A stretch of 64,000 bases of DNA from an uncultured delta proteobacterium (GTDB taxonomy: Bacteria; Desulfobacterota; WTBG01): the NCBI GenBank assembly GCA_963752035.1, contig CAVVWZ010000031.1, positions 3,115-67,114 of the forward strand, read 5' to 3'. Numbering within the stretch: position 1 is the first letter of the stretch; every line of letters begins with the position of its first letter. A program made the translations under genes and the position numbers. A model generated the notes under the pieces. That model worked only from the letters and a program-made list of their open reading frames with translations. It was not told the origin of the DNA and searched no databases. Of the stretch, positions 32,005 to 52,830 are shown piece after piece.

Positions 32005-32033
32005 AGAGAACAGAACCTCTCCCCTGTGTGTTT

Positions 32034-34172: not shown

Positions 34173-34652
34173 ATGAAACAATCAGACCCTGTATCACACT
34201 GGCTCCCCTGCCCCGTAGTCTTTATCAGTACGGCTTACGGAGAAAAACGTGACATTATGACGGCAACCGCCATGTTCGTCTCAGAGAAAGAACCCCTTCT
34301 CGCAGTCAGCGTTGCAAAAGCACATCTCACCGCTCAACTCATTGAGCAGGCGGGTGCTTTTACACTGGTGATGGCATCTGCAGGCCAGCAGGAACTGGTC
34401 TGGAAATTAGGCAGCACAAAAGGGGATGAAGGTGACAAGTTTGCCCGTTTTGCTATAAACACCCTTCCCCCCGAACCGGGGAAGCCACTTGTCCCCGTGG
34501 AAGCTTCCTCCTGGATGGAATGCACAGTGGTGAGTCAACACCCTTTAGAAGGATATGTGCTGGTAATTGCCCGGGTAACCAACCAGGAAAATCTCGAAAA
34601 CCCTCCCCTCATGTGGCACGACCAGGCACTCTGTACCTTGAAATCACTCTGA
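34173..34652 (+). CDS. Flavin reductase-like (FMN-binding split-barrel) domain protein
   Basis: ATG at 34173 follows an AAGGAGG Shine-Dalgarno. The PVVFISTAYGEKRDIMTATAM pattern matches the flavin reductase domain. Confidence 0.7.
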   Translation: MKQSDPVSHWLPCPVVFISTAYGEKRDIMTATAMFVSEKEPLLAVSVAKAHLTAQLIEQAGAFTLVMASAGQQELVWKLGSTKGDEGDKFARFAINTLPPEPGKPLVPVEASSWMECTVVSQHPLEGYVLVIARVTNQENLENPPLMWHDQALCTLKSL

Positions 34653-34675
34653 GCTATTGCAGGGACATAGAGAAA

Positions 34676-35788
34676 ATGTACATGAGTGAAAACGGTGTAA
34701 TACAGCGAAGAGAAGATGGCCTTACTATTGTATCCCTTAAAGGGACACCCCTTGAGATGGGATTACAACATGGCACCCTGCTTAAAGAAGAAATAAGCAG
34801 AATACATGATCATGTTCTCTCCTACCTCTCTCAAATAAAACGGGGAGTATGGGGACGAACTGTGTATCCCCTCTTGCAACTACTTGTTTGGGGTTATAAC
34901 CTGTTCATACCGGCAGAATACAGGGAAGAGCTCAAGGGCATAGCACGGGGAGCCGGCCTCAGCTATTCTTCTATCCTCCTCATCAATGTGTTAGATGATC
35001 TGGGACATAAAATGGCCTGCTCCTGTTTTACTGTTACAGGGGCGAAGACTAAAGGGAATACACTCATCTATGGCAGAAACCTGGATTATGGAATATTCAC
35101 TGATTTGATGCCTTCTCTAAATACTATTTTTTGCTACCAGCCCAGCAGTGGTTTCCCGTTCGTCTCCGTGGCCTGGCCTGCCTATGCCGGGGTTGTGACG
35201 GGCATGAGTTCCAAAAAGCTGGTATTAGGAAGCCTAACCTCATTTTCCAAAGAAAAGGCCCGTATAGGAACACCATCGGGACTGTTATACCGAAAGGCCC
35301 TTCAATACGCATCTTCCCTAACAGATTTCCGAAAATCAATTATGAATGGACGCCGTACCATCAACAACAATCTCCTTATTGCATCCACCGGGGAGAGCGT
35401 TGTACTGGAGGTATCGCCCACCCGGGGCCAGTTGCGATCCCAACAGGATGATGTATTAACAGTTACCAATCACTTTCAAAACCCCTTCATGTCCGAGCTA
35501 AAAACCTTCTTCATGGCCAAACCACCCGGCTCTACACTGGAAGATGAACTTTTTACGGAACACTACAGTGTCGCCCGAAACGAACGGTTACAGCATCTCT
35601 GCAGAAAGGGAGCAATTGATATTGAGGAAGCCATTGCCATACTGCGGGATCCAAAGATAAGCAATGCAGGAACGGTGCAGAGCCTTTTACTCATTCCCGA
35701 ACGTTTAGAGCTGTGGGTTGCCAGGGAAACAACTGCGCCGGTTTCACAAGGTGAATTCATTCAACTGAAGGACCTCTTTTCAGGATAG
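34676..35788 (+). CDS. C45-family (acyl-CoA:6-APA acyltransferase-like) Ntn hydrolase
   Basis: About 370 aa from ATG 34676. A candidate nucleophile Cys sits in MACSCFTV, followed by YGRNLDY. The upstream part of ORF 34520 overlaps the preceding gene. Confidence 0.6.
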   Translation: MYMSENGVIQRREDGLTIVSLKGTPLEMGLQHGTLLKEEISRIHDHVLSYLSQIKRGVWGRTVYPLLQLLVWGYNLFIPAEYREELKGIARGAGLSYSSILLINVLDDLGHKMACSCFTVTGAKTKGNTLIYGRNLDYGIFTDLMPSLNTIFCYQPSSGFPFVSVAWPAYAGVVTGMSSKKLVLGSLTSFSKEKARIGTPSGLLYRKALQYASSLTDFRKSIMNGRRTINNNLLIASTGESVVLEVSPTRGQLRSQQDDVLTVTNHFQNPFMSELKTFFMAKPPGSTLEDELFTEHYSVARNERLQHLCRKGAIDIEEAIAILRDPKISNAGTVQSLLLIPERLELWVARETTAPVSQGEFIQLKDLFSG

Positions 35789-35930
35789 CATTCTCAAGGT
35801 CCTCTTCTTTCCAAATCGCACCTTTATCTTTTCCTTGACGCACGTGAAAACCTCCCTTATACTTTTTCCATTACTAAAAACCCCCACTCGTTTACTCCTG
35901 TTAGTAGATCTTCTCTGAGAAGGAGTTACT

Positions 35931-36503
35931 ATGAAAGCAACCGTAAGCACCATTGGACTGATAATCATTGTTGTTCTTCTAACACTTTCTTACTACGGAT
36001 TCTTTGCGAAGGTTACCATAGTAGAAAAGGAGATCGGTGACTTCTGGTTACTCTACGAGAAACATGTCGGGGACTATAAGGAAACCGGGCAGGTAATGGA
36101 CAGAATCTATTCCAGGTTATTGGGTGAAGATGCAATTGCACCCTCAAGAGGATTTGGGCTCTACTTTGATGATCCCAAAAAGGTAGAGAAAAAACACCTG
36201 AGGAGTATTGCAGGATGTATCTTAGATGGACAGGATGAAGGTAAAATTAACTATTTAAAAACCAACTACCAGGTAAAAAAATATCCTGCTTCAACAAGTG
36301 TTGTTGCTGAATTCCCCTTTAAGGGAACCCCCTCCATTCTTATGGGTGTAATTAAGGTCTACCCCAAACTCACGGAATACATAGCACAACACAATTATCC
36401 GCCGGTTCCAATCATGGAAATATATGACACGCCTAATGGAAAGATTTCCTATATCGCCTCTGTAAATCTGGATGGGCAGGTTTTTGATGATCTTCTGGAA
36501 TAG
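35931..36503 (+). CDS. Membrane-anchored GyrI-like (small-molecule-binding) domain protein
   Basis: 190 aa with an N-terminal TM helix. The remaining pattern (HVGDYKETGQVMDRIY...GLYFDDP) is as in GyrI-like/SOUL-type domains. Confidence 0.45.
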   Translation: MKATVSTIGLIIIVVLLTLSYYGFFAKVTIVEKEIGDFWLLYEKHVGDYKETGQVMDRIYSRLLGEDAIAPSRGFGLYFDDPKKVEKKHLRSIAGCILDGQDEGKINYLKTNYQVKKYPASTSVVAEFPFKGTPSILMGVIKVYPKLTEYIAQHNYPPVPIMEIYDTPNGKISYIASVNLDGQVFDDLLE

Positions 36504-36685
36504 GCCCTCAAGAGAAGTGCCTTTAATCCTCTCACATTCCTGCTATCATCCCGCCGGTGTAGGTTGTTATTAATTATTTGCAAAACCGGGAAAATACTAT
36601 ATACTGATTCTCAAGTTTGCAAACCCTATAGCACAAGGGATTTATAGACTGGAACATCCCAGCATTAAGGAGACCATCTGCAACA

Positions 36686-37240
36686 ATGGACCGAAAGACA
36701 AAAATGATCTATAGACATAACCGATTACTGTTGCTCAGCATTTTCTTACTCTTGGCAAACATCCTTGTTTATAGTGCAGGGGGAGAAGATGCTCGCCTTC
36801 ACGCTAAAGAGACCTTTGATTTTTCTCTCGAGACTTTAGAAGGTGAAAAGATCCAGCTTAAGGATTATCGAGGTAAAAAGGTTGTACATCTTGTGTTCTG
36901 GTCTACATGGTGTCCTAAATGTCTGATAGACATGGCGAAACTAAAAGAGCTGTGGAAAACTATGGAGAACAGTCCCTATGAAATATTGGCCGTAAATGTG
37001 GGACTGAATGAATCGAAGAAAAGAATCCATAAGATACGCAGTGAATACCAGATCCCCTTCAGAATTGTCCTGGATAATAAGAGTAAGGTAACAAAAGATT
37101 TTGGTGTAATGAGTATTCCCTTTAACATTATAATCGACAAGGACGGTACTATAACAGATCGCTTTAGTGACCTGCCCAAGGATCCAAAAGACCTTCTCAA
37201 TAAAGTGTCCCTGGGTCAGCTCAATCACCTGGACCACTAA
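36686..37240 (+). CDS. TlpA-family thiol:disulfide oxidoreductase (thioredoxin fold)
   Basis: 184 aa with a signal/anchor sequence and the WSTWCPKC active-site motif. Confidence 0.8.
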   Translation: MDRKTKMIYRHNRLLLLSIFLLLANILVYSAGGEDARLHAKETFDFSLETLEGEKIQLKDYRGKKVVHLVFWSTWCPKCLIDMAKLKELWKTMENSPYEILAVNVGLNESKKRIHKIRSEYQIPFRIVLDNKSKVTKDFGVMSIPFNIIIDKDGTITDRFSDLPKDPKDLLNKVSLGQLNHLDH

Positions 37241-37277
37241 ACGGTTTAAACAAAGATCAGACAACTTATCCGATAAA

Positions 37278-37308
37278 GGGCGTGGTATAGTATACCACGC
37301 CCTTTTTT
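37278..37308 (+). terminator. Rho-independent terminator
   Basis: GGGCGTGGTATA-G-TATACCACGCCC stem followed by T6. Confidence 0.75.
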
Positions 37309-37431
37309 GACTTTTCACTCATTATCTGCACACATGCTGCCGATACATATATTATACTATCGTATAAGTTCATATTGTACAGATAAGGTGCTTTTAGTTA
37401 ATTTTAATGATCAAATGGAAAGGAACGTGCT

Positions 37432-38995
37432 ATGGATAGTCTCAAAAAATCGAGCTTGTTTCTTATGGTTGCACTGACCCTGGTTGGACTACTGACAGCC
37501 CTGCACACTAAAGGAATAGCCCGTGCAGAAGGGAATTTCCCTCTACTCTATTCTGATGGTACCCTTCCTTCCCGTTCTGCTTCTGGAGATCCTTTGTTAC
37601 TTGGGAGGTTTACCTCCTATCCCACAGACCCTACTGCAGATATTCCCTGGTCATGTGGATTCTCCGGGGTGGACCAGATACAGTGTGCATTCAACAACGC
37701 CCGCTCAGCTGAAAACACCCAGCTGGGAACATCCCTTCCCCCGGTGACATTGCCGTCCCAGGCTACATGGGATGGCTATGAGTGACGGTGAAAAAGCCCT
37801 GTGGCTCATCAATCGAGAACGTGATGATCGGGACCTGGATCCCTTAGAGCAGATAGAGTCTAATGTCACCGATGTAGCCCAAACCTATGCAGATTTTCTC
37901 TTAGACAACGATGCCTGGGGACATTATGAAAACGGTCTTTCACCCTGGGAACGGCTAAATGAAAACCCGGTAATTCTGGACTGCCATGACAACCTGTCCG
38001 TAGCTGAAAATCTGGCAGTCTTTGTTTCAACCGGCACTATTCCCCTCCCGGTGGTGCGGTCCGTATACATGTGGATGTATGATGATGCGGGATCCGCTTG
38101 GGGTCACAGACATGCAATTTTGTGGTATCCCTATAACGACAACAGTGGTCTTGGCGGGATGGAAGGTTTTATGGGCATCGGCCGGGCAAGTGGCGGACCC
38201 TATCAGGGGCCGTTTGCCAGTCCATGGCCATTTGCTGAAATGATTGTTATGAACGTCTTCGATCCCTGCAAAACCTGGGAGTACGATTCAACTACTTCAT
38301 CATCCACGTCACCGACAACCACAACTTCAGCATCATCTTCTTCGACGACCTCTTCAGCCATCCCCTCTTCCACAACCACATCAACGGAACCGGGCACATC
38401 AACCTCTACCCCTTCAACCAGCACAACTCCACCCGGCATAACAACCACCACGGTACAGGGGACCTCCACGATCCCCCCTGGGACTACCACAAGTATCACA
38501 GGGTGCTCCCTAAGTATGGTACCCCAGTCTGAACACATTGCATCCATGCAGTCTTTGACATTTACTGTGCTCCCCCAGGGTGACTGCAATGATCCTGATT
38601 ATGAATGGTTGCTGGAAACCACTATTGGTAGCAGTTGCGACCAGGGAGGTAATTACACTGCCGGGGACAACCCTAACATGCTTACGCCGGCAACCGATAT
38701 AGTAACCGTGGTTGACCATGCAAATAATGACAGTAACGCCCATGCGTCGGTTGATGTCTTTTTTGCATGTCCTTCTAAACATCTCTACGGTGGCGATTCA
38801 GAGGAAGTATACCTTCTGAGGAAATTTCGTGATGATGTGCTCAGCTCAACACCCGAAGGAAAACAACTTATAGAATTGTACTACAGGTGGAGCCCTCTTC
38901 TGCTTAAAGCTATGGTGGAAGATGAGGAATTTGAAGATGAGATAAGAAACATGCTGGGTGGTATTTTACCCAGAATTAAAAAAAGTCTTAAGTGA
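37432..38995 (+). CDS. Secreted CAP/SCP-domain protein with a Ser/Thr-rich linker and C-terminal domains, frame broken near 37775
   Basis: Signal peptide in ORF 37432-37785. The CAP-like core (LWLINRERDDRDLDPL...AENLA...WGHRHAIL) continues in ORF 37772-38995. A 70-aa S/T/P tract spans 38285-38480. Confidence 0.6.
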
Positions 38996-39005
38996 CATTC
39001 CTCTT

Positions 39006-39028
39006 CCCTCTCCCCTCAGGGGAGAGGG
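39006..39028. repeat. GC-rich hairpin between convergent genes (CCCTCTCCCC-TCA-GGGGAGAGGG)
   Basis: Perfect 10-bp stem. It is a possible bidirectional terminator or REP-like unit, with no clear T-tract. Confidence 0.4.
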
Positions 39029-39068
39029 ATGGGGTGAGGGGGAAATTCCATTTTCGAATCAACAATTG

Positions 39069-40139
39069 TTACGGACGTGCTTCAAATACAACATTAATAG
39101 GGGTTTCCACTACCCGGTTAAAGCGGGTAAACCCCCCTGATTGCAAGACCTCACGCAGCCTCGCCTCCCCGGCTTGACCTCCTAAAGCGACGCCTCCTTC
39201 CTGATTGAGGGCACAGGGAACACAGATCAATACGGAAGCACAGTAATACAGCCTCCCTATCGGGGTCAGGTTGTCTTCAACCCGGTCCCCTGCAAATGGT
39301 TCCACAATCATCCATGTACCATCACGTTTAAGTGATTTAAGCACATGGGACGATGCAGCCACAGGATCTCCCATATCGTGCAGGCAGTCAAAGGCTGTAA
39401 CAAGATCATAGTTAGTGCCGGAAAAGGTGGTGCCCGAAGCTACTTCAAACCGCACCCGATCTGAAACACCGGCTTCTTCGGCCTTCCTGCGTGCAGCTGC
39501 AATCGACACATCATGGGGATCGGAACCATAAAAGGTTGAGTGAGGGAAGGCCTGGGCCATAATGATGGTTGACGTTCCACATCCGCAGCCAATATCAGCG
39601 ACGGAAGCCCCTTTGTGCAGTTTGTCTTCAACCCCATCAAGGGCGGGAATCCATGACTGCACAAGGTGGGTCAAGTAGTTAGGGGTATAAAACCGGTCTC
39701 CCCCTTCTGCCAGCTTCTGGTCATGCTCGTCCCATCCAAATCCTTTGCCGGTCCGGAACGCATCGACAATCTTCTCTTCAGAACGGATAGCTGCGGTGGC
39801 AGCCTGGAAGGCTCCCGGCAGATAGACCGGGCTGTTCTCGTCTGCAAAGGCAAATGCCTGTTCATCCGAAAGGCTGTACTGTTCCGATTCCGGATGGTAA
39901 TCCACATAACCCCCGGAAGCCATTGCCGGAAGCCATTCACGAACGTAACGCTCAGATGTTCCCGTCCGCTCTGCCAGTTCAGCGGATGTCATTTGACCCT
40001 GGCCGGCCATGGCCTTAAACAGGCCAAGTTTCTCCCCGATCAAAACCAGCGGGGCATGGAATGCTGCACCGATATCTTCGATAACTTTTTGTACGATACT
40101 GTTGAGCTTCGTTTCGTCAAGTGGCATAACATTTTCCAA
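39069..40139 (-). CDS. Class I SAM-dependent methyltransferase with an N-terminal winged-helix-like dimerisation domain
   Basis: 356 aa with SAM motif I VADIGCGCG and downstream motif YDLVTAFDCLHD. Confidence 0.8.
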   Translation of the reverse strand: MENVMPLDETKLNSIVQKVIEDIGAAFHAPLVLIGEKLGLFKAMAGQGQMTSAELAERTGTSERYVREWLPAMASGGYVDYHPESEQYSLSDEQAFAFADENSPVYLPGAFQAATAAIRSEEKIVDAFRTGKGFGWDEHDQKLAEGGDRFYTPNYLTHLVQSWIPALDGVEDKLHKGASVADIGCGCGTSTIIMAQAFPHSTFYGSDPHDVSIAAARRKAEEAGVSDRVRFEVASGTTFSGTNYDLVTAFDCLHDMGDPVAASSHVLKSLKRDGTWMIVEPFAGDRVEDNLTPIGRLYYCASVLICVPCALNQEGGVALGGQAGEARLREVLQSGGFTRFNRVVETPINVVFEARP

Positions 40140-40228
40140 TTAGCACAGGTTTATAAAATGGAGCAGTATAAGAAAAACCATGGTTAGTGTCAATTAAAAC
40201 CATTCGAAACAGAAAATCGATCCTGCCC

Positions 40229-42361
40229 CTATTTTTGTTTCATCGAGAGGCTAATCCTCTTCCTTGGAATATCCACTGAAAGTACGGTTACAGTAACCTG
40301 CTGATGGAGTTTGATTACTTCAGCAGGGTTTTTCACAAACTTGTCTGAGAGCTCACTTATGTGCACCAACCCATCCTGGTGCACACCAACATCCACAAAA
40401 GCACCGAAATTGGTTATATTGGTAACGATACCGGGGAGCTTCATCCCGACTTCTAAATCTTCAATGGCACATATGTCGTTGGCAAAACTAAACTGCTTAA
40501 AGGTCTCTCTCGGGTCACGGCCCGGTTTTGCGAGCTCAACCATTATATCACGTAAGGTGGGCAGGCCTGCCGTGGTGCTTACATAGCTCTTCAAATCTAT
40601 TTGTGAGCGTACTGTTTCATCCTGCATTAAGTCCCTGACCGCACAGTTAAGATCCCCTGCCATCTGCTCAACAATGCAATAACTCTCCGGGTGCACGGCG
40701 CTTGCATCGAGGGGGTTAGCACCATCCCTTATTCTCAGGAAACCCGCTGCCTGCTCAAACGCTTTTTTTCCCAGCCCGGAAACTTTTTTAAGTTCTGCCC
40801 GGGACGCGAAGGGACCCTGCTCATCTCTGTAATCCACAATGGACTGGGCACGTTTTGGCCCCAGCCCGGAAACGTAGGACAGAAGCTGCTTGCTGGAAGT
40901 ATTCAGTTCTACGCCAACCTTGTTCACACAGCTCTCCACTACATGGTCAAGTTTTTCCTTTAACAGTTTTTGATCAACATCATGCTGATATTGCCCCACC
41001 CCAATAGATTTAGGTTCGATTTTGACAAGTTCTGCGAGGGGATCCATCAGCCGTCTCCCAATGGATACAGCTCCTCTCACCGTTACATCGTAATCAGGAA
41101 ATTCCTTCCGGGCCACCTCTGAGGCAGAATAAACTGACGCCCCGTTCTCACTCACCATTACCACTGCAGTATCACCTGGCAGTTGTAATGTGCGAATAAA
41201 GGATTCTGTTTCTCTTCCTGCTGTACCATTACCTACCGCTATCATTTCTATCTGGTACCTGTCACAGAGATTACGGATTATGTCTTCGGCTTCTTTCCGT
41301 TTGCTGTGGGGTTCGTGCGGATATATCGTAGTATTCTGGAGAAGCTTTCCCTGGCTGTCTAAACAGACCACCTTACACCCTGTACGAAAACCGGGATCAA
41401 TGGCCATGACCCTCTTTTGTCCTAACGGAGGTGCAAGTAACAGTTGACGAAGATTTTCCGCAAACACCCTGACTGCTTCTTCGTCAGCTTGATTTTTAGC
41501 AGTAGATCTGATTTCATTCTCCATTGACGGGGACAAGAGCCTTTTATAACCATCCACTACCGCCATGTGCACCTGTTCTGAAACACCATTACCATTGGTA
41601 ACAAAGTGATCTTCCAGTAGTCCCAGGGCATCTTTTTCATCAGGGCGAATGTGTAGCATCAAAAAAGCTTCCTTTTCCCCCCGCATCATTGCAAGTAAGC
41701 GGTGAGATGGAACCCTTTTAACCGGTTCTTCCCAATCGAAATAGTCTTTGTACTTAAGGGCTTCTTCTGCTTTCACGCCAATTACTTTTGTCTTGATGAG
41801 GCCACGATCAGTAAAGAGCTCCCTTATGGCGGCTCTCGCAACCTGATCCTCACTGATGTGCTCGGCAATAATGTCCCGCGCTCCCTGGAGTGCATCTTCG
41901 GCAGTTTCAACACCTTTTTCCAAGTCAATATAGTTGGTTGCCTCCTTTAACAAATCGACGTCATCCTGCTTCATTATCAAATCTGCAAGGGGTTGAAGCC
42001 CCCGTTCCCGTGCAATGGTTGCCCTGGTTCGACGCTTTGGTTTGAAAGGCAGGTAGATATCCTCGAGCACTGCGATGGTTTCTGCGACCATCAGTTTTTT
42101 ATGCAACTCTTCCGTAAGCAATTCCCGTTCTGAAAGAGATTTTACTATTGCATCACGCCGTTTATCCAACTCTCGTAACTGATGTAACCTGTCCCGAACA
42201 GCACCAATGACTATCTCATCTAAGCTGCCGGTTGCCTCTTTCCTATAACGGGATATAAAAGGAATGGTGGACCCATCGTCTAAAAGCTGGGCAGTGACAT
42301 CAACCTGTTTTTCACTTAACTGCAACTCCCTTGCAATCTTCTTACTATGTTCCGGATTCAT
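40229..42361 (-). CDS. tex: Transcription accessory protein Tex (S1 RNA-binding)
   Basis: 710 aa. It has the N-terminal Tex domain (TIPFISRYRKE), a YqgF-like domain, HhH motifs, and a C-terminal S1 domain (GIVTNITNFGAFVDVGVHQDGLVHISE). Confidence 0.9.
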   Translation of the reverse strand: MNPEHSKKIARELQLSEKQVDVTAQLLDDGSTIPFISRYRKEATGSLDEIVIGAVRDRLHQLRELDKRRDAIVKSLSERELLTEELHKKLMVAETIAVLEDIYLPFKPKRRTRATIARERGLQPLADLIMKQDDVDLLKEATNYIDLEKGVETAEDALQGARDIIAEHISEDQVARAAIRELFTDRGLIKTKVIGVKAEEALKYKDYFDWEEPVKRVPSHRLLAMMRGEKEAFLMLHIRPDEKDALGLLEDHFVTNGNGVSEQVHMAVVDGYKRLLSPSMENEIRSTAKNQADEEAVRVFAENLRQLLLAPPLGQKRVMAIDPGFRTGCKVVCLDSQGKLLQNTTIYPHEPHSKRKEAEDIIRNLCDRYQIEMIAVGNGTAGRETESFIRTLQLPGDTAVVMVSENGASVYSASEVARKEFPDYDVTVRGAVSIGRRLMDPLAELVKIEPKSIGVGQYQHDVDQKLLKEKLDHVVESCVNKVGVELNTSSKQLLSYVSGLGPKRAQSIVDYRDEQGPFASRAELKKVSGLGKKAFEQAAGFLRIRDGANPLDASAVHPESYCIVEQMAGDLNCAVRDLMQDETVRSQIDLKSYVSTTAGLPTLRDIMVELAKPGRDPRETFKQFSFANDICAIEDLEVGMKLPGIVTNITNFGAFVDVGVHQDGLVHISELSDKFVKNPAEVIKLHQQVTVTVLSVDIPRKRISLSMKQK

Positions 42362-42412
42362 AAAAGCCTTTCATCACATCTGGATAATGTAGGTTGGTTC
42401 ACTACAGTTCAA

Positions 42413-43469
42413 TCACATAATCAGCCAGGGTTGGGGCAGGAAAATTTTCTCATAGAAGTTGAAGGCATATCGATCTGTCATGCCTGCGACAAAATCACAC
42501 ACTCGACGTTCTAATGATTCACCAGCACCGGGCCAGGAATATTCCTTAAGGAATTCATCTTCGTGATCCAGGAAATAGTGATAGAGTTCCCTCAGTATCT
42601 TTGAGGCCTTAATAAAATTGGAGTAAACTGCAGCTCCAAAATATACTTCTCTATAGAGGTACTCCCGCAGTTTTACTGTTTTCTCCATAACCGGTTGACT
42701 TAAGGTAATCTGCTCTCCCCCTGTCTCCTCTCCGACCTTCAATACATCTTTTACCATTACATCTATCCTGCGGGCCTGGGAATCACCAAGGAATGAAATA
42801 CAATCCTGTGGAAGATCATGATGAGAAATAACTCCAGCTCTCAGCGCATCGTCAATGTCATGATTGACATAGGCGATGATATCAGCAACTCTCACGATCT
42901 GTCCCTCCAGGGTTGCGGGCATGAATTGAGGATCACTTGCAATGATATCGCCCTCTCCTTTCGAGTGTTTCAAGAATTCCATCACGAACCTCATGGGTCA
43001 AATTCAGCCCTTTACCGTCCTTTTCCAAAATATCAACCACCCGCAAGCTCTGTTCGGGATGACGAAATCCACCGGGGAAGATCTCATTGAGAACCGCCTC
43101 ACCTGCATGTCCAAAGGAGGTGTGACCGAGATCATGGCCGAGGGCTATTGCCTCGGTCAGATCTTCATTTAATCGAAGGGATTTTGCTATGGTCCGGGCT
43201 ATTTGGGAGACCTCCAGGGTGTGGGTCAATCGGGTACGATAGTGATCACCCGTTGGGGCCAGAAAAACCTGTGTTTTGTGTTTGAGCCGTCGAAAGGATT
43301 TTGAATGGAGAATCCTGTCCCGGTCGTGCTGAAAAGCGGGCCTTATCTCACATAGATCCTCTTCAATCTTTCTTCCCCTGGTCCGGGAACTGAGCTGGGC
43401 AAGAGGGGAAAGTCTTAATTCTTCATCCTGCTCAAGCATTTCGCGGATACTCATTGTATGCCTCCTCAC
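42413..43469 (-). CDS. dGTP triphosphohydrolase-like HD-domain protein, frame broken near 42968-42970
   Basis: ORF 42933-43469 holds [15 protein letters not shown] and [13 protein letters not shown] 42413-42994 continues with KHSKGEGD...[17 protein letters not shown]. The join lies at a 3-nt homopolymer. Confidence 0.8.
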
Positions 43470-43806
43470 CGGTATATCACTAGTACTAAAAACAGCAACC
43501 TAGATTTCATGTAACCACCCCTAAGGTACCATAAAAAATATAAACAGTAATAGAAAAATATAGGGATTTTTCACTTAACATCTAAAGATAACCAGTTAAT
43601 TATTCAGTTAAAAACACGGAAAGATCACTTTTTTAGACATATTTCACTAGCAACCCTTGACAATGAGAAAAGAAGAATTATATTATAATGTTAACTTAAA
43701 TTAACCAACATAGCCCAAAACAGAGTGAACTATCTGAAATAAAAAGATAAAAATCAACAGTTTACCTCTAAAAATCAATTTTTTTCACTATTCTCCAAAA
43801 AAACAG

Positions 43807-43835
43807 TTGATTAAATGGGAAAAAACAGCTAAATT
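43807..43835 (+). promoter_or_regulatory. Putative groESL promoter (TTGATT-N17-TAAATT)
   Basis: The hexamers lie directly upstream of the CIRCE element. Confidence 0.45.
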
Positions 43836-43836
43836 A

Positions 43837-43863
43837 TTAGCACTCATCAAGAAAGAGTGCTAA
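43837..43863 (+). promoter_or_regulatory. CIRCE operator (HrcA binding site)
   Basis: TTAGCACTC-N9-GAGTGCTAA is a perfect match to the CIRCE consensus, 115 bp upstream of groES. Confidence 0.9.
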
Positions 43864-43977
43864 TATGCTTTATATATAATGCAATTCAGATTAAAGGAGG
43901 TGGTGAACGTAATACAAATCTGGGTGTTTTAAGTAATCTATTCAATAATCTATTAGTAAACAGGAGGTTTTAAAAAG

Positions 43978-45925
<1,948 letters not shown>

Positions 45926-45948
45926 AAACCGCTTTAAAAAACTACAAA

Positions 45949-45987
45949 AAGAGAGAGCTCCTCAAAGAGGGGCTCTCTCTTTTTTTG
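45949..45987 (+). terminator. Rho-independent terminator after groEL
   Basis: AGAGAGAGCTCC...GGGGCTCTCTCT stem followed by T7. Confidence 0.7.
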
Positions 45988-46023
45988 ACAGTACAATCAT
46001 TCAGGTCTCATATATGCTTCCAT

Positions 46024-46449
46024 TTAAAACGGTATATCATCTTCTGTGTTTATATCCGGGGTACTATCGTTGGAGGGAGGAGGACCGAGGTCACTTCCAC
46101 CTGATCTTACCTGATCTCCTGCAGTGCCAAGCATCTGCATTATGCCGGCAACAATCTCCGTTGTTTTGCGCTTGTTGCCATCACGATCCTCCCAATCCCT
46201 TGTCTGCAGTCTTCCTTCAATGTACACCTGCTTGCCCTTAGCGAGATACTCACCGCAAATTTCACCCAATTTCCCAAAGGCAACAATGCGATGCCACTCA
46301 GTCCTCTCCGTCTTCTCACCACTTTTGTCGGTAAAGTTTGTGCTGGTAGCAATGTTGAAATTGGCTACAGGTGTTCCCGTATTGGTGTATCTCACCTCGG
46401 GATCAGCACCTAAACGACCTAAAAGGATAACCTTATTTACACCCGCCAT
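46024..46449 (-). CDS. ssb: Single-stranded DNA-binding protein
   Basis: 141 aa with an OB-fold N-terminus ([17 protein letters not shown]), a Gly/Pro-rich tail and a terminal DDIPF. Confidence 0.95.
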
Positions 46450-46531
46450 TGTTTCCTCCTCACTAAAAAATTAATAAATTGAAATGTGCCAGAATTCTAG
46501 CACCAATCGAAATAAAGTCAACCCATTACTC

Positions 46532-46585
46532 GGGGTCAAACCTACACTTTTGACAAAAAAATGTCAAAAGTGTAGGTTTGACCCC
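46532..46585. repeat. Perfect 24+6+24 palindrome, copy 2 of the family seen at 32034
   Basis: GGGGTCAAACCTACACTTTTGACA / AAAAAA / TGTCAAAAGTGTAGGTTTGACCCC. It lies in the divergent ssb / 46916-gene spacer. Confidence 0.85.
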
Positions 46586-46915
46586 CAAAACAAGGAATAC
46601 TCATCACCGGATCTTCAAGGGTTTGCCCCCCATGTGTTTGAGTTGGAATGTCAAACTGGGTTCTAACTTATTGGATTGTAAGATCTTTGGTAAATGTCAA
46701 AGTTTTCCTCTCTATCGAGGTACCACCATATGTAGTTTAAATTGGGGACATATAAGATACATTAATATTGATTTAGAAAGGATTTTATGGTTTAATTTAA
46801 TATCATAAAAACAATATTAGGTGTTCAGATGAAGACACTTTTTAACATAACCCTACCTCATCTTAGACAGAGCAATCTAACCGGTGGGGTTTATCTGTTT
46901 GAGGGAGGGGAAACA

Positions 46916-48817
46916 ATGAAAAAATTATCTGTATTCACTATGGTTTTTTTAATTGTTTGCATCTCTACTTCTGTAAGCTACAGCGAATATTATTGGGCAA
47001 AGACTTATGGTGGGCCGGTATGACGTTGCCGAATCTATCATAAAAACTACTGATGGTAGGTTTCTTGTTTCCGGTGTTGCTAATCCGTTGGGCCAGGTGA
47101 ATTTGATTGGTCGATAACGAAAGTTGGCAGTAATGGGGAAATTCTCTGGCAAAAAACTTTTGGTGCAAGTATTGGTGGATTACGGAAGTCCATCATTGCA
47201 TCAAACAACCGATGGAAACTATCATAGTCACAGAGTTATTCCGATTCTTTTGGTGCTGGTGACCGGATGCATGGATATTAAAGTTTGATTCAGTGGCAAT
47301 GATTATTATGGCTGAAGACTTACGGAGGAGTGGCTATGATGATGCTCAATCCATCCAGCAGACACAGATGAGGGGTATATAGCAGTAGGAAGTACCGGCT
47401 CTTTTGGCGATGGGAGTTCTGACATATGTGTTATGAAACTCCATTCCAATGGAAATATTATGTGGCAGAAGACATATGGGGGAGAAGGTTATGATTAGTG
47501 CAGCAATCTATCCAGGAAACCTCAGATGGAGGATATATAGTCGTGGGATCAACATCCCTTTCTGGAGATGAATGGGGAGATAGTTTTCGCTTTAAAACTC
47601 AACAGTACCGGTGATATTTCCTGGTCGAAGGCTTTTGGTGTGTGCTGTGGAGATTTTGGTGAATTTGCTCACGAAGTTCTAGGAGAAGGATACATTGTAG
47701 GGGGAACTAATTACCATGAGGGTTATTATTACTACTGGCTGCTTAAGCTCGACTACAGCGGGAACATTACCTGGCAAAAAATGTATGGAATTTATGAGGC
47801 TGCGAACCATGCCTTTTCTTTTCACCAAACAGCAGATGGAGGATATGTTATAGCAGGTAGTTCTCTAGTATTTAGTCCAAGTGTAAATGATTTTGCTCTT
47901 GTGGTTAAATTAGATGGTAACGGTGATGTATTGTGGCACAAAACTTATGATGTAGGTGAATATACTACCATTATGTCTATCCAGCAAACAGTAGCAGGAG
48001 GGTACATAATGGTAGGTCATGCAGGATTTGGAACCACCTGGGAATCAAGATGTTTTAATATTCCAACTTGATAACACAGGGAACATTCCTGATTGTGATC
48101 TGATAAGTAATAAATATTTCATTTTTTCTGAAACAACTGTTTCACCTGAAGATTTTAGCTTTACCGTTCAAACATCAATTCCCACTATTACAGACACTAC
48201 TATTGTACCCCAAGATTTTTCAACAGTGATTTCTGATATCTGCTGTTATGATGATACCAGCGATGCTGACCAGGATGGTGTAGGAGATGTTTGTGATCCT
48301 GATGATGATAATGATGGAGTATGTGACCCGGGTGTTTCTGATTCCATATGTACCGGATCAGACAATTGTCCTTATACACCAAATGGTTCTGAAGGAGGTA
48401 CCTGCACTGCGGGAGCAACCTATAAAATTGGTAGGCCCTGCATAAATCATGCTGAATGTGAAGCGAGTGGCTTCTGAAGTACAAATCAGGAAGATACTTA
48501 TCCTCCAGAAGGGAATGGAATAGGAGATGCTTGCGAGTGTGAAGGGAACTTTGATTGTGATGAAGATCATGATGGCTCTGATGCCGCAACCTTCAAGATA
48601 GATTTTGGACAGAAGCACATTTAGCAATCCTTGCGAAACTAGTGATCCATGCAATGGAGATTTTGATTGTGATAACGATTGTGATGGGACTGATGCTGCA
48701 AAATTCAAAGAAGATTTCGGAAGAAGTGGTTTTAACAATCCCTGTCCTACTTGTGAAGTAGGAGATTGGTGTGTATATCCCTACAATAGTTTGAATCATT
48801 CTTCTGATGACCAGTAA
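46916..48817 (+). pseudogene. Secreted repeat protein A, heavily frame-broken. Domains: signal peptide, about seven W-x-K-T-Y-G-G type propeller-like repeats, TSP3-like D-rich repeats, dockerin-like CxGDFDCDxDxDGxDAxxFK repeats
   Basis: It begins MKKLSVFTMVFLIVCISTSVSYS. Homologous repeat units can be followed only by switching frame many times between 47000 and 47570. Longer intact pieces are 47568-48071, 48019-48477 and 48605-48817. There is an in-frame TGA at 48475. Confidence 0.6.
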
Positions 48818-48854
48818 AGCCTCTCAGTTAAAATTCTGAGAGGCTTTTTTTTTT
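48818..48854 (+). terminator. Rho-independent terminator of gene A
   Basis: AAGCCTCTCAG...CTGAGAGGCT stem followed by T10. It is paralogous to the terminator at 52512. Confidence 0.8.
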
Positions 48855-49385
48855 GGATGAAGACACAATATATTGTGGTATGTTACAATCTTGGTTAAAA
48901 ATTGTAACATACTGCACCCATTAAAAGGCTAATGTCAAGAGGGAACACCTCTCCTGTAATAAAAAGTTTGGCTTTTTTACAGTGTAGTACCATGATGTCT
49001 CAATCCGGCTTTGCTTTCGCACCCGTGGTTTCATTGTATAGTATAGTTACGAAACAGTAGTGACCAGTACTGCCTCGCACCATGCACCCATCAGGATCAA
49101 GGCTTATAAGAGTATACTTCCCTCTTTGCCCCTGGCACTTGTTCGTGCCCCAGAAAACCTTCGGTTCCATACCAGTGTCCATTGGTTTTATCTCAAATAT
49201 CATGGCTGTACACCAGCAATTCATGGCTCATGGTATAGGCGAAACAGTAAACCGTGTGAGACATATTATAATCCTTTAGTATCCAAGGATGTGGCAGATT
49301 ACCAATCAAATAGTGTGGTTTAGTCCCAGCAGAATGTTATAGGTTCACTGCCACATCCCTTTCTTACACAAATACCCGTGAGGGA

Positions 49386-50383
49386 TCAAACTCTCGTCTG
49401 ATCCCGTATGATATAGTAACAGGCTCGGGCTAGCTTGTGGGCTATTGTTTTTCTCGCCACGATCAGATTGGTCTTAGCCATCTTCCTTTGATAGTAACGC
49501 TTCACGTACTCGTAATGCCGCAGTGCATGGTGTGCTGCCTCTACATATGCCCAGGACAAGTGCTTGTTTCCATTTTTACGGTTTCCTTTTCCTTTGACTT
49601 TTTCGTTCGAAAACCTCTTGCTTCCCACACACCGGCAATAGGATGCATAGTTTCCTACCTTCTCAAATCTCTCTATGGGACCGGTCTCATACATGATGGT
49701 CAAAGCCAGAATCTTCTTGTATCCCTGGTACCGTCATCAGCAACCTGTATTCATCTCTGAGTTTTGCAGCCTTGTGGATTGTTTTTTCTAATTGCTTGTA
49801 TTCTTTCAGCTAAAAAGAGTATTGTGGCAATGCTTACCTTGCCTGATACTACCAGGTGTTTATCATGGAAAAGGTGTTCTACATCATCTTCACTCAGTTT
49901 CTTGACGGCATTGCCATTCATGCTCTTACCCAGGTTCCGGGAAACAAGATTCTGAAAGCTTTGTATCTGGAGCGTGCGTTGTTGTACTAATTGCATCCGT
50001 TTCCGTAAGAGGTCTCGTATCGGTCGTTCCTCTTTCGGATAAATATATCCTGTCGGCAGGATACCAAGACGGAGCAGGTTCGCCAGGTGAAAGGCATCGG
50101 TAACGTCATCTGAATGTTTGAGCCCTGTATACTGCTTAATTGCTGAGGGATTTGCCAGATGTATAGTGTATCCCTCCTCGATCAGTCCATCTACCAGCCA
50201 ATACCAGTTGTAGGTCGATTCAACCACTATTCCTTTAACCTGGTCCCGGTAGGGCTTCAGTGCATGTAGTACCAGCCTCAAATCATTTTTTGTTTTCTTC
50301 TTGAACACTTTTTTGTTATCATTATCAATAATTGCTGTATAGCTGTTGTTTGAGTGTAAATCTATTCCTACGTAATGGTCCAT
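49386..50383 (-). pseudogene. IS110-family DEDD recombinase/transposase, frame broken twice (near 49810 and 49715)
   Basis: The N-terminus MDHYVGIDLHSNNSY matches the DEDD_Tnp_IS110 type. The middle part LLMTVPGI / KILALTIMYETGPIERF and the C-terminus YASYCRCV...GNKHLSWAYVEAA match the Transposase_20 type. They are recovered from three frames. Confidence 0.75.
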
Positions 50384-50563
50384 GATGCACCTCCTGTTAA
50401 ATGGTTAATAGTTTGTCTCGTAACCATTATAAACCTACAGGAAAGTGTTTTCCATGGGCCTTTTATATGATTATCAAATGTGTTGTACTCGACCTTCTCA
50501 AATAAAAACTCAACATTGAGTTGGAATGTCCAGGTTGACTCCCAAAAAAATTCCATGATTGTT
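50384..50563 (-). ncRNA. Candidate IS110 guide (bridge-type) RNA region, hypothesis only
   Basis: The region has no ORF and several hairpins (50400-50428 8-bp stem, AACTCAA/TTGAGTT at 50507-50522). It contains a 15-nt copy of the IS-free paralogous site. Confidence 0.25.
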
Positions 50564-50805
50564 TTGGAATGTCAAACTGGGTTCTAAATTATTGGATTGT
50601 AAGATCTTTGGTAAATGTCACAGTTTTTCTCTCGATTGAGATACCACTATATATTGACATTTGATATCGATTTGGGGTTTAATTTATTGTATAGTTGAAT
50701 ATTAATTGGGTGTTCCAATGAAAACACTTATTTGACATAACCCTACCTCATTTTAGACGGAGAAGTCTAAGCAGGTGGGGTTTATTTGTTTGAGGGGGGA
50801 ATACA

Positions 50806-52483
50806 ATGAACCTTAGAAAATATCACTAGTTTTTGTTGTATGCTGTGCTTGTTTTGTTATGGTAAGTAGTACCAATGCTTTTGGCTCTTGGAGCATAGAA
50901 ACCTTGGATAGTATGGAGATGTAGGCTATGATACCTCCATATCAGTTGATTCACAAGACAAGGTACACATCAGTTATTATAATATACACATGACCTATTA
51001 AATACATTACCAACACCACAGGTTCCTGGGTACAGAGACGCTGGATGTCTCAAATTATGTAGGGTCCGTTTACTTCCACCTCTCTAGCAATTGACTCTCA
51101 AGATAAGGTGCACATCAGTTATTCTTAGTTCTTGCTTTTATAATCTTTGGATTTTGGAATATCATACACCACCAATGCAACAGGTTCGTGGGTAGCAGAG
51201 ACCCTGGGTAGCGTTGGAGACTGCACCCCATGTCTACCTCCATAGCAGTTGACTCACAGGACAAGGTGCACATCAGCTATGGTGGCCCCTTAAATACATC
51301 ACCAATGCCACAGGTTCCTGGGTAGCAGAAACGCTGGATAGCCCAGGCAGGCATTCCTCCATAGCGATTGACTCACAAGACAAGGTTCACATCAGCTATG
51401 TTGATAAGACTAATGATGACCTTAAATATAATACAAATGTCACTGGTTCCTGGATAGCAGAGACCCTGGATAGCGGTGGAGAATTTATAGGCAATTCCAC
51501 CTCTATAGCAGTTGACTCACAAGATAGGGTGCACATCAGTTATTATGATGCTACTAACGATGACCTTAAATACATTACCAATACCACAGGTTCCTGGGTG
51601 GCGGAAACGTTGGATAGCGTCTGGTATCTATTATAGATGGTAATAGCCACCTCCATAGCGATTGACTCACAGGATAAGGTGCACATCAGCTATTATGATA
51701 ATTATCACTGTGACTTAAAATATGCATGATGTGAAGTGGATCACGGAAACTACAGGTCCATGGGTTTACAGAGACAGTGGATAGCAGTGGAAGTGTAGGC
51801 ACGTGGAACTCCACAGCAGTTGACTCACAAGACAGGGTGCACATCAGCTATTTTGATAATACGAACGGAGACCTTAAATACGCCAAGCAATGTCTTGCAC
51901 CGGATTCTGATTGTGATGATATCCTGGATTATGAGGATAATTGTCCTGAAAACTTTAATCCAAGCCAAGTGGACACAGATGCTGACAGTATTGGAGATGT
52001 CTGTGACAACTGTCCTTTACACCCAAATAGTCCAGAGATAGGTATCTGCACCTGGGCATACACAGGTACAACCTGTTTGAGTGATGAGGAGTGTGGATAT
52101 GCGGGTTTTTGCAGTATAGATCAGGCAGACAACATTGATTGCGACTTGCAAGACAAATTTTGATTGCGATTACGATGTAGATGGGACTGATGCTGCTAAT
52201 TTTAAATTACATTTTGGAAGAAGCCTGTTTGACAATCCTTGTACAAATGGTGAGCCATGCAAGGGCGATTTTGAGTGTGATGGAGATGTGGATGGAAGTA
52301 ATGCAGCTGAGTTCAAGGGACGTTTTGGCACAGTTCCATTTCCACCGTATGGTTATTGCTTGTCCTGTGTTGATGGAGTATATCAATACGATTGCTCATA
52401 CTAAAATTATTTTCATTAATTTATTCAACAACCCCTGTCCGGCTTATGCAGTAGGGGAGTGGTGTGTGTATCCATTGCCATAA
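50806..52483 (+). pseudogene. Secreted repeat protein B, heavily frame-broken. It shares leader, signal peptide and C-terminal module with gene A but has seven different (S-I-A-x-D-S-Q-D-K-V-H-I-S-Y type) propeller-like repeats
   Basis: ATG 50806 is followed by a stop after 7 codons. The signal peptide (KISLVFVVCCACFVMVSSTNA) continues in another frame. Intact pieces are 51777-52163, 52135-52404 and 52181-52483. Confidence 0.6.
50940..51890 (+). repeat. Seven tandem coding repeats of 119-158 bp
   Basis: The anchor CACATCAG recurs at 50966, 51111, 51269, 51388, 51532, 51682 and 51839, inside conserved GACTCACA[AG]GA[CT]A[AG]GGT.CACATCAG[CT]TAT blocks. Confidence 0.85.
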
Positions 52484-52511
52484 GATTTTGAAGCATAATT
52501 CAGACTAATGA

Positions 52512-52545
52512 AGCCTCTCAGCAATAACCCTGAGGGGCTTTTTCC
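52512..52545 (+). terminator. Rho-independent terminator of gene B
   Basis: AGCCTCTCAG...CTGAGGGGCT stem followed by T5. Confidence 0.7.
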
Positions 52546-52830
52546 TTTGGTCACCAACCCCAGATATAGTGGTGTTTGGAATTAGCCAGAAACCTTGACA
52601 TTCTGCAAAAATGTTGGGTACTCAGGTTCCGAAGTAATAACGCATAATACAAAAAGAATGTTGAACTCTGCTTGCTGGAAAGGGATTGTATATAAGTTCT
52701 CGAACCCTAAAGCGAAGAATGATTTTCCCGTTAACCTTGAGGATGCCTATAGTAACAGGCTCAAGAAATGTGGTAAATCAGTGAGGGACGTTGGTAAATA
52801 GATGCATAGCCAACTCGACAAAAAAGTAAG

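What the first reader, a model, noticed from the sequence alone, without database searches (positions are those of the whole stretch)
46638..52545. Two cassette-like paralogous secreted genes with shared ends and different propeller cores, both shattered by frame breaks and flanking the IS
Gene A (46916-48817) and gene B (50806-52483) share several parts:

- about 270 bp of upstream leader
- the signal-peptide region
- a C-terminal module of TSP3-like Asp-rich repeats
- CxGDF[DE]CDxDxDGxDAAxFKxxFGRSxFxNPC repeats
- a terminal NNPCPxCxVGxWCVYP motif
- near-identical terminators (AAGCCTCTCAG...CTGAG[AG]GGCTTTTT)

Their centres are built from different seven-unit repeat families. Gene A uses W-x-K-T-Y-G-G / DGGYI units and gene B uses SIA-DSQDKVHISYYD / TGSW-ETLD units. 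Both are unreadable as single ORFs. By my manual translation, roughly a dozen frame switches are needed within 47000-47570 alone. Gene B is already out of frame 7 codons after its ATG. The flanking housekeeping genes show about one break per 5-7 kb, so disruption is enriched far above background. This indicates either genuine decay of an accessory surface-protein locus around an IS, or a locally very poor assembly of a repeat-rich, possibly variable, locus.
Basis: seen in the sequence. Interest (0 to 1): 0.6.

Follow-up and report, generated by a model that had tools for sequence, protein, structure and literature searches.

The report
Assembly-shattered secreted propeller gene pair
Two neighbouring genes for secreted beta-propeller proteins look shattered mainly because this draft genome carries many single-base errors at that spot. 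Every break that outside data cover is intact there, so the breakage is ordinary, although the family's shared RNA leader deserves a separate look.

Summary
Gene A (46916-48817) needs 14 frame switches plus one TGA. Gene B (50806-52404) needs at least 11 switches plus one TAG. That is about 7 breaks per kb, against 0.15 per kb in 125 kb of conserved genes of the same assembly.

The breaks are most likely sequence errors, not decay.
- Contigs of 97-99% identity from four unrelated public studies, one a metatranscriptome, cover five junctions (six single-base differences). All five are open there.
- Read across its breaks, A aligns end to end with intact 580-627-residue proteins (E 1e-221).
- The most shattered stretch is 84-86% identical in DNA to an intact homologue, against 62-70% elsewhere. 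It differs by scattered single-base gaps with no excess of substitutions.

The genes belong to a family of about 14 copies in this 69%-complete genome. Each copy has:
- a conserved leader with a covarying RNA hairpin, found in 10 of 11 genomes of the taxonomic family upstream of signal-peptide genes;
- a variable core (a CylK/delta-60-like propeller in A, BNR_4-like repeats in B);
- a cysteine-rich, dockerin-like C-terminal domain and a terminator.

The IS110-family element sits in the spacer between the genes and interrupts neither.

The parts
46635..46915 (+). Leader of gene A. It holds part of 'block 1' (46640-46706), a possible small 5' hairpin (46818-46838) and the conserved RNA hairpin (46849-46891). 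A U-rich run and the ribosome-binding site GAGGGAGG follow.
   Evidence: Aligned with 9 other copies in the genome. RNAalifold predicts the hairpin. Covariance model R1 scores this copy at 96.8 bits.
46916..48817 (+). Gene A encodes a signal peptide, a seven-bladed delta-60/CylK-like beta-propeller, a beta domain, TSP3-like Asp-rich repeats and a Cys-rich dockerin-like C-terminal domain. As deposited it is broken by 14 frame switches and one TGA.
   Evidence: Breaks at 47493, 47503, 47583 and 48027 are absent from independent contigs.
48816..48847 (+). Intrinsic terminator of gene A
   Evidence: 12-bp stem with 6 GC pairs, followed by a T run.
48958..50489 (-). IS110-family element with approximate ends. 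Its transposase spans 50383 to 49386 and is split once near 49703-49751. The element lies in the spacer between A's terminator and B's leader.
   Evidence: Pfam DEDD_Tnp_IS110 scores 64.2 bits and Transposase_20 scores 36.3 bits. Ends were inferred by comparison with IS-free spacers in L114 and C37. Related IS copies in metagenomes lack a base at 49716/49717.
50490..50805 (+). Leader of gene B. It holds the full 'block 1' (50500-50620) and the conserved RNA hairpin (50739-50782), followed by a U-rich run and the ribosome-binding site.
   Evidence: 104.2 bits; MFE equals the consensus hairpin, z -3.8.
50806..52404 (+). Gene B encodes a signal peptide, seven BNR_4-like repeats, TSP3-like repeats and a dockerin-like C-terminal domain with the variant end GYCLSCVDGVYQYDCSY. 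As deposited it is broken by at least 11 frame switches and one TAG.
   Evidence: Breaks at 50913 and 52145/52146 are absent from independent contigs. The variant end is conserved in P0007.
52406..52483 (+). Out-of-frame remnant of the canonical family C-terminus (KIIFINLFNNPCPAYAVGEWCVYPLP*), lying downstream of B's real stop.
   Evidence: Alignment with gene A and L114. A gap-free independent contig covers 52224-52445.
52510..52541 (+). Intrinsic terminator of gene B
   Evidence: 12-bp stem with 6 GC pairs.

Best explanation
A and B are two ordinary, functional-type members of a multi-copy family of secreted surface proteins. Each member is its own transcription unit. It has a conserved leader with an RNA hairpin, a signal peptide, an exchangeable beta-propeller core, a Cys-rich dockerin-like C-terminal domain and a terminator. 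That C-terminal domain probably docks the protein onto cohesin-like partners at the cell surface.

Their shattered state is not biology. The deposited draft is a 69%-complete, 102-contig metagenome-type assembly with about 0.15 frame breaks per kb everywhere. It carries a roughly 50-fold local excess of single-base insertion and deletion errors in this repeat-rich, multi-copy, strain-variable locus.

- Shown: the breaks are absent wherever independent sequence exists, and the coding information is intact.
- Inferred: the untested breaks are of the same kind. The cause is poor consensus, from low depth of an accessory locus and/or cross-recruitment of reads from paralogues and strains.
For: **1. 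Independent sequence repairs every junction it covers.** Logan contigs of 97-99% identity come from four unrelated studies.
- X1 lacks base 48027.
- X1 and X3 lack base 52145/52146.
- X25 lacks 47493, 47503 and 47583.
- The metatranscriptome X28 has an extra G after 50913.
- Applying only these changes opens 369 codons in A (47367-48474) and 212 codons in B (51768-52404).

**2. The coding information is intact.**
- Stitched A aligns over 98% of its length with intact proteins P0001 and P0002 (627 aa, 56% identity, E 1e-221). There are 7924 hits in all.
- A's TGA aligns with a conserved Cys.

**3. There is no excess of substitutions where the breaks are densest.**
- The most shattered part (46916-47400) is 84-86% identical in DNA to the intact gene L114, against 62-70% further on.
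- It differs from L114 by 13 gap runs whose length is not a multiple of 3, lying inside long identical runs. The single-base gaps go in both directions.

**4. The whole assembly is error-prone.**
- About 16% of conserved orthologues are frame-broken.
- A 98-99% identical strain at 10-20x depth lacks the two coding indels seen in the flank, at 36644 and 37278.

**5. Other family copies are hit unevenly.**
- The B-like copy on C59 has a 736-codon open frame.
- Other copies on C59, C37 and C42 are multiply broken.

**6. Relatives carry intact members.** Relatives of the same taxonomic family, including the 10-contig, 98%-complete genome G008, have intact A-type and B-type members behind the same leader.
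Against: - Only 6 of at least 27 lesions could be tested. No outside sequence covers 46916-47411 or most of B's core.
- The outside contigs come from other samples and strains, not from the reads behind this assembly. Decay specific to the sequenced strain is therefore not formally excluded.
- The two in-frame stops (48475, 51634) are untested.
- The errors include both insertions and deletions and are not confined to homopolymers, so no single sequencing chemistry explains them.
- The reason for the 50-fold local excess is inferred, not shown.
Confidence: 0.77

Rival explanations
1. Genuine, very recent pseudogenisation. The sequenced population has really lost both genes, and several paralogues, through a burst of small indels, while sister strains keep them intact.
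For: - The breaks are in the deposited sequence.
- The outside contigs that repair them are from other samples.
- The locus is strain-variable. In X1 the flank sits at 10-20x depth but A and B only at 0-5x.
- An IS lies between the genes.
Against: - About 4% indels with no excess of substitutions is not a natural mutation spectrum. The shattered part is the part most like an intact homologue.
- 16% of conserved housekeeping orthologues are broken too, which points to data quality.
- The IS interrupts neither gene.
- Amino-acid motifs are kept across every junction.
Confidence: 0.12
2. Mixed case. Most indels are errors, but a few lesions are real, so one or both genes are truly inactive. Candidates are the TGA at 48475, the TAG at 51634 and the garbled stretch 51123-51143.
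For: - These three lesions are not covered by outside data.
- B carries a real, conserved rearrangement at its 3' end, so real structural change does occur in this family.
Against: - The TGA is one substitution away from the conserved Cys codon. It lies in an assembly whose base errors are frequent.
- B's 3' rearrangement is shared with an intact gene and leaves a complete reading frame.
Confidence: 0.08
3. Programmed variation. The frame breaks reflect population heterogeneity from cassette recombination, phase variation or recoding, and the assembler blended the variants.
For: - Conserved ends flank variable cores.
- A natural chimera exists, with an A-type core and a B-type tail (P0007).
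- There are many paralogues and tandem arrays.
Against: - The shared ends are only 70-90% identical, so recent gene conversion is not evident.
- Break sites are not simple-sequence repeats.
- No slippery-site pattern recurs.
- Intact relatives need no recoding.
Confidence: 0.03

Closest known systems
Consensus or indel errors in repeat-rich, multi-copy parts of draft metagenome assemblies
   Same: Single-base gaps in both directions cluster in paralogous, internally repetitive, strain-variable genes. They are absent from independent assemblies of near-identical strains. The genome-wide background of broken conserved genes is raised.
   Different: The sequencing and assembly method of this record is unknown to me. 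The errors are not limited to homopolymers.
Type I dockerin / cohesin modules (cellulosomes; cohesin and dockerin proteins reported in syntrophic sulfate reducers and ANME, PMC10553843)
   Same: - Two tandem segments with a D-x-D-x-D-G-x-D loop, each followed by a helix. The AF2 model has helices at 510-519 and 547-556.
- The two best PDB profile hits are dockerins, 8ajy_B and 2y3n_B, and both span the two repeats.
- Cohesin-like ORFs lie beside family members on C42 and form the core of the C37 copy.
   Different: - 10-12 conserved cysteines, and a terminal C-x-x-C-x-x-G-x-W-C-x-Y-P motif.
- No Pfam Dockerin_1 match.
- The PDB E-values are only 0.11 and 0.58.
- The cohesin hit scores 22 bits, below the 24.1 cut-off.
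Delta-60 repeat / DUF5122 beta-propellers; propeller domain of CylK (7fh7, 7ron)
   Same: - A's core has seven ~50-residue W-x-K-T-Y-G-G...DGGYI blades.
- Its homologues carry PF17164 and PF26094.
- The AF2 model of P0007 matches CylK at E 2.6e-20 and TM 0.55.
   Different: 21-23% identity to CylK. There is no evidence of CylK's catalytic function. Here the propeller is attached to TSP3-like repeats and a dockerin-like tail.
BNR_4 (PF15892) / SBBP-type secreted propeller repeats
   Same: Homologues of the B-type core are often tagged PF15892 or PF06739 and named 'BNR repeat-containing'.
   Different: A direct Pfam scan of stitched B and of the intact C59 copy gave no significant match.
5' leader hairpins that act as transcription attenuators or mRNA stabilisers (riboswitch expression platforms, ompA-type 5' stem-loops)
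   Same: A GC-based 16-bp hairpin with covariation and many G-U pairs. It is followed by a U-rich run and the ribosome-binding site, at a fixed distance from the start codon.
   Different: There is no Rfam match and no identified ligand or protein partner. It marks many unlinked genes for exported proteins, not one operon.

Membership tests
Genuine pseudogene (decayed gene) | The lesions are present in the organism's DNA, that is, reproducible in independent sequence | tested here: not met
   All 6 single-base differences at the 5 junctions covered by outside contigs are absent there. The source reads were not available.
Genuine pseudogene (decayed gene) | Relaxed selection: substitutions and nonsense changes accumulate along with indels | tested here: not met
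   The shattered part is 84-86% identical to intact L114, against 62-70% elsewhere. There is one stop per gene against 11-14 frameshifts.
Dockerin_1 (PF00404) | Match to the family profile above the curated cut-off | tested here: not met
   No hit in stitched A or B at E <= 0.01 and none anywhere in the genome. The profile of 23 C-terminal domains hits PDB dockerins only at E 0.11 and 0.58.
Dockerin_1 (PF00404) | Duplicated calcium-loop-plus-helix segment | tested here: inconclusive
   The D-x-D-x-D-G-x-D loops are invariant in A1. The AF2 model shows two helices in the right places, but pLDDT there is only 46-82.
Dockerin_1 (PF00404) | A cohesin partner is encoded | tested here: inconclusive
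   PF00963 gives one hit at C42:1630-1944, at 22 bits against a cut-off of 24.1. It lies next to a gene with the C-terminal domain.
Delta-60 repeat / DUF5122 propeller | Profile match and a seven-bladed propeller fold | tested here: inconclusive
   TIGR02608 scores only 17.9 bits against a cut-off of 76.5. Homologues carry PF17164 and PF26094. The AF2 model of homologue P0007 is a confident propeller (pLDDT above 90) matching CylK.
BNR_4 (PF15892) | Profile match | tested here: inconclusive
   There is no direct hit. Many homologues are tagged PF15892.
Thrombospondin type 3 repeat (PF02412) | Profile match above the cut-off | tested here: not met
   17.6 and 16.8 bits against a cut-off of 25.
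IS110 family | DEDD transposase N-terminal domain plus Transposase_20 C-terminal domain | tested here: met
   64.2 bits (cut-off 29) and 36.3 bits (cut-off 21.3), on two fragments split by one frame break.
Any described RNA family (Rfam 15) | Covariance-model match for the leader | tested here: not met
   No relevant match at E <= 1 over 46400-52700.
Structured cis-regulatory RNA | Conserved base pairing with compensatory changes across relatives | tested here: met
   95.7% of cells are paired and 8 of 16 pairs show changes on both sides. None of 500 shuffles reached the observed values, and slid controls gave 42-60%. The alignment was fitted to the model, which favours the structure.

The most novel reading that the evidence does not exclude
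The roughly 100-nt shared leader is an undescribed cis-regulatory RNA. It consists of a covarying 16-bp hairpin, a U-rich run and the ribosome-binding site. It marks a regulon of about 10-15 or more exported proteins per genome across all seven sampled genera of an uncultured Desulfobacterota-type family. Many of those proteins carry an undescribed cysteine-rich dockerin-like C-terminal domain that docks onto cohesin-like partners. Together this would be a co-regulated, modular surface-display system whose cores are shuffled between conserved ends.
Probability: 0.4. Interest if true: 0.55.

Novelty: new member of a known kind. Interest (0 to 1): 0.28.

Why it matters
**For annotation.** This assembly cannot be used to count pseudogenes.
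- About one conserved gene in six is frame-broken.
- Multi-copy surface-protein genes reach about 7 breaks per kb.
- Gene callers will therefore shred the family that is probably most relevant to cell-cell or cell-matrix contact in sediment.

**For biology.**
- The family, with propeller cores on a Cys-rich dockerin-like tail, makes up perhaps 1-2% of the genome.
- Its leader motif gives a simple handle for listing the exported proteins the organism may co-regulate.
- The handle can be tested by term-seq or 5' RACE on sediment enrichments, and by binding assays between the C-terminal domain and the neighbouring cohesin-like proteins.

Tried and rejected
- **Homopolymer-only error model: rejected.** Some differences are in short runs (TTT at 48027), but 47493, 47503 and 47583 and many L114-guided gaps are not.
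- **IS-driven disruption: rejected.** Comparison with IS-free spacers places the element at about 48958-50489, between A's terminator and B's leader.
- **Leader peptide (the ATG at 46829 and its counterparts): rejected as the conserved feature.**
  - The C1 copy has a stop at codon 3.
  - Frames differ among relatives.
  - L087 lacks the ATG.
- **Rfam** gave nothing for the leader.
- **Pfam and NCBIfam** gave only sub-threshold hits for both proteins and none for the C-terminal domain.
- **Exact-pattern scan of species-representative genomes for the hairpin core** gave one match in an unrelated Acholeplasmataceae MAG, which I take for chance. The covariance model was needed to find relatives.
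- **Look-up of the neighbouring trehalose-phosphate synthase, to identify the record:** nothing found.
- **Contig-end overlaps, to guess the assembler:** none found.
- **Scan of metagenome contigs for a near-identical copy of A's shattered N-terminus:** only relatives at 47% identity or less.
- **CsrA-site idea for the hairpin loop: not adopted.** GGA is not conserved in the loop.
Full report
**What is in the sequence.**

The six-frame ORF list and three-frame translations show that no long ORF spans either gene.
- Gene A starts at ATG 46916 behind a ribosome-binding site and ends at 48815-48817. Reading it through takes 16 segments, that is 14 frame switches and one in-frame TGA at 48475. Twelve junctions lie in 47017-47581.
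- Gene B starts at 50806 and hits a stop at codon 8. It needs at least 11 switches plus a TAG at 51634, and it has an unreadable stretch at 51123-51143.
- Repeat finding confirms the shared leader, the shared C-terminal repeat pair, the alike terminators and seven core units in each gene.
  - B's true stop is at 52402-52404, and the NNPCP...WCVYP motif behind it is an out-of-frame remnant.
  - The two signal peptides are not homologous in sequence.

**How unusual the break density is.**

The window is C31:3115-67114 of a 1.93-Mb, 102-contig assembly that is 68.9% complete with 3% contamination.
- I took 400 kb from a 98%-complete relative of the same family (G008) and called 307 ORFs. I searched them against this genome with tblastn.
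- 120 orthologues covering 125 kb carry about 19 unique frame breaks, or 0.15 per kb. About one conserved gene in six is broken.
- A and B carry about 7 breaks per kb, roughly 50 times more.

**Are the breaks real in the organism?**

The source reads could not be found. The best public holder has only 0.20 of the sampled words. Several marine-sediment runs nevertheless hold strains of 97-99% identity.
- In run X1 the flank 30000-46600 is covered at 10-20x. It shows only two coding indels, at 36644 and 37278, both extra bases in the window.
- Over A and B the cover is patchy, but every junction that is covered is repaired:

| Run (study) | Difference from the window | Junction repaired |
|---|---|---|
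| X1 (P1) | lacks 48027 | frame 0 to frame 1, gene A |
| X25 (P13) | lacks 47493 and 47503 | frame 0 to frame 2, gene A |
| X25 (P13) | lacks 47583 | frame 2 to frame 0, gene A |
| X1 (P1) and X3 (P2) | lack 52145/52146, giving ...NIDCDCKTNFDCDYD... | frame 0 to frame 1, gene B |
| X28 (metatranscriptome) | extra G after 50913 | frame 0 to frame 2, gene B |

- Applying only these observed differences opens 369 codons in A (47367-48474) and 212 codons in B (51768-52404).
- A gap-free X3 contig over 52224-52445 shows that B's odd 3' end is real.

**Is the coding information intact where no outside sequence exists?**

- Stitched A (630 aa) finds 7924 proteins. The best, P0001 and P0002 (627 aa), align over 98% of its length at 56% identity, E 1e-221.
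- The alignment is colinear across all junctions, and the TGA falls on a conserved Cys.
- P0007 (580 aa) is 67% identical to A over residues 1-230, which is the shattered part.
- Its contig L114 carries the intact gene behind the same leader.
- A nucleotide alignment of 46916-47640 with L114 is 82% identical. It contains long identical runs interrupted by single-base gaps in both directions.
- By stretch, identity is 84-86% in 46916-47400, where breaks are densest. There 13 gap runs have a length that is not a multiple of 3. Identity is 62-70% beyond 47600.
- Damage made almost only of indels, with no extra substitutions, fits sequence error and does not fit evolutionary decay.

**What the genes are.**

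Leaders and C-terminal modules recur across the genome. There are about 14 C-terminal domains, on C31, C35, C37, C42, C59, C79, C82 and C96, with partial copies on C13 and C29.
- C59 has the same A-like then B-like tandem. Its B-like copy is open for 736 codons.
- C42 has two PQQ-like-propeller members that are also multiply broken.
- A's core belongs with delta-60/DUF5122 propellers.
- An AF2 model of P0007 (pLDDT 82.7) shows a confident propeller over residues 28-373. It matches CylK at E 2.6e-20.
- Homologues of B's core are often tagged BNR_4 or SBBP.

The last roughly 88 residues form a strongly conserved domain with consensus GDACDCEGNFDCDxDxDGxDAxxFKxDFGRSxFxNPCxxxxxCNGDFDCDxDCDGTDAALFKxDFGRSxFNNPCPxCxxGxWCxYP.
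- Its profile's two best PDB hits are dockerins, but they are weak (E 0.11 and 0.58).
- The model has two helices where dockerin helices would be.
- Pfam Dockerin_1 does not match.
- A cohesin-like ORF (22 bits, cut-off 24.1) lies next to a family member on C42. Two further ORFs, the C37 core and C42:8720, share its LITAG..I.YDP motif.
- I therefore describe the tail as dockerin-like in likely function, not as a Dockerin_1 member. Cohesin and dockerin proteins have been reported in syntrophic sulfate reducers (PMC10553843). I do not know whether this organism is one of them.

**The shared ends.**

- P0007 combines an A-type core with B's variant tail (...GYCLACVDGVYQYDCSY), and L114 has the same out-of-frame remnant and terminator as B. 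Cores and tails have therefore been recombined in nature, and the B-type 3' arrangement is old.
- DNA identity between the shared ends of A and B is only 70-90%, so nothing indicates ongoing cassette switching.
- In L114 the terminator is followed by the first block of another leader, so tandem arrays are usual.
- By comparison with IS-free spacers, the IS110-family element occupies about 48958-50489, in the spacer. Its transposase has one frame break near 49716, which related IS copies in metagenomes lack.

**The leader.**

- Ten copies in this genome align in two blocks.
- The block next to the start codon contains a hairpin of 10 + 6 base pairs, followed by a U-rich run and the ribosome-binding site.
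- A covariance model finds it in 10 of 11 genomes of the family, in all 7 genera, with up to 15 copies per genome.
- On 30 distinct hits, 95.7% of cells pair, and 8 of 16 pairs show changes on both sides. No shuffle of 500 reaches the observed values, and slid controls give 42-60%.
- The many G-U pairs point to pairing in the sense-strand RNA.
- Most of the ORFs read downstream (about 20 of 26) begin with signal peptides or lipoprotein signals, and their cores are diverse.
- Single-sequence folds recover the hairpin for B and for a G008 copy (z -3.8 and -3.0). A's leader prefers an alternative that pairs the 5' arm with the ribosome-binding site.
- Rfam has no match.
- I read the leader as an attenuator-like or stabilising 5' element of a secretome regulon. 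This is inference only.

**Verdict.**

The shattering is best explained as local sequence error in a low-quality draft (confidence about 0.77). Genuine strain-specific decay is the main rival. The genes themselves are ordinary members of widespread secreted-propeller families. The dockerin-like tail is not matched by any Pfam or NCBIfam model, and the leader RNA is not in Rfam, so both merit a separate entry.

Noticed in passing
window 46818-46915 and 50707-50805; also G000 C1:3331-3437, C37:18316-18422, C59:22156-22262 and 24302-24411, C63:5781-5889, C78:14297-14402: A conserved ~100-nt leader RNA motif: a covarying 16-bp hairpin, a U-rich run and the ribosome-binding site. It lies upstream of genes for exported proteins in 10 of 11 genomes of the family and is absent from Rfam 15.
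   Followed up: yes
window 50500-50620 (partial copy at 46640-46706); G000 C37:13177-13291, 15432-15556, 16565-16661; C63:5580-5700: A second conserved upstream element ('block 1', ...TTGGAATGTCAAACTGGGTTCTAAATTATTGGATTGTAAGATCTTTGGTAAATGTC). It also stands alone upstream of unrelated secreted genes. It may be a promoter or a regulator-binding region.
   Followed up: partly
window 52330-52483; L114 1820-1965: B's variant C-terminus (GYCLSCVDGVYQYDCSY*) is followed by an out-of-frame remnant of the canonical NNPCPxCxxGxWCxYP end. The remnant still keeps the key residues, in the window and in a metagenome gene only ~70% identical in DNA. Either the 3' block is constrained at the DNA level or it is refreshed by gene conversion.
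   Followed up: partly
window 46532-46585: A perfect palindrome of two 24-nt arms around a 6-nt spacer. In the 98-99% identical strain of run X1 it is replaced by 21 other letters (joint 46522 to 46613). Several strains diverge from the window at 46532 and 46586.
   Followed up: partly
window 36644, 37278 and about 42930-42995: Single extra bases in flanking housekeeping genes that the X1 strain lacks. There is also one gap in an X3 contig near the overlapping ORFs 42413-42994 and 42933-43469. These are the same kind of frame-breaking error as in the finding.
   Followed up: partly
window 45945-46075: A cluster of small indels between the window and the X1 strain in the groEL-ssb spacer. A 3-base GGA insertion at 46075 inside ssb is seen in both X1 and X25.
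   Followed up: no
G000 C42:1588-1980 and 8720-8998; C37:18511-19140: Cohesin-like ORFs with a shared LITAG..I.YDP....V motif, next to or fused with members that carry the dockerin-like C-terminal domain. The Pfam Cohesin hit is 22 bits, just under the cut-off.
   Followed up: partly
G000 C59:26800-27066 and C37:19770-20035; proteins P0019, P0028, P0074: Some family members carry a further cysteine-rich extension after the WC.Y end (for example ...CAYSTINSCCCSTCSLLGFPEPLCISPVGCLLGCENTCLP). P0019 and P0074 have a different ~150-residue extension.
   Followed up: no
window 48872-48913: A 13-nt inverted repeat (GGTATGTTACAAT ... ATTGTAACATACT) just after A's terminator. The surrounding ATAT.TTGTGGT motif recurs after B's terminator and in L114.
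   Followed up: no
L083 2-1168 and L091 1927-3087 (relative G010): ORFs that look to me like group II intron reverse transcriptases (...RRVYIRKKNGTRRPLSIPTMRDRAMQ...; recognised by eye, no family search run) lie right next to two leader copies in a relative. This suggests that these spacers are favoured landing sites for mobile elements, as with the IS110 element here.
   Followed up: no
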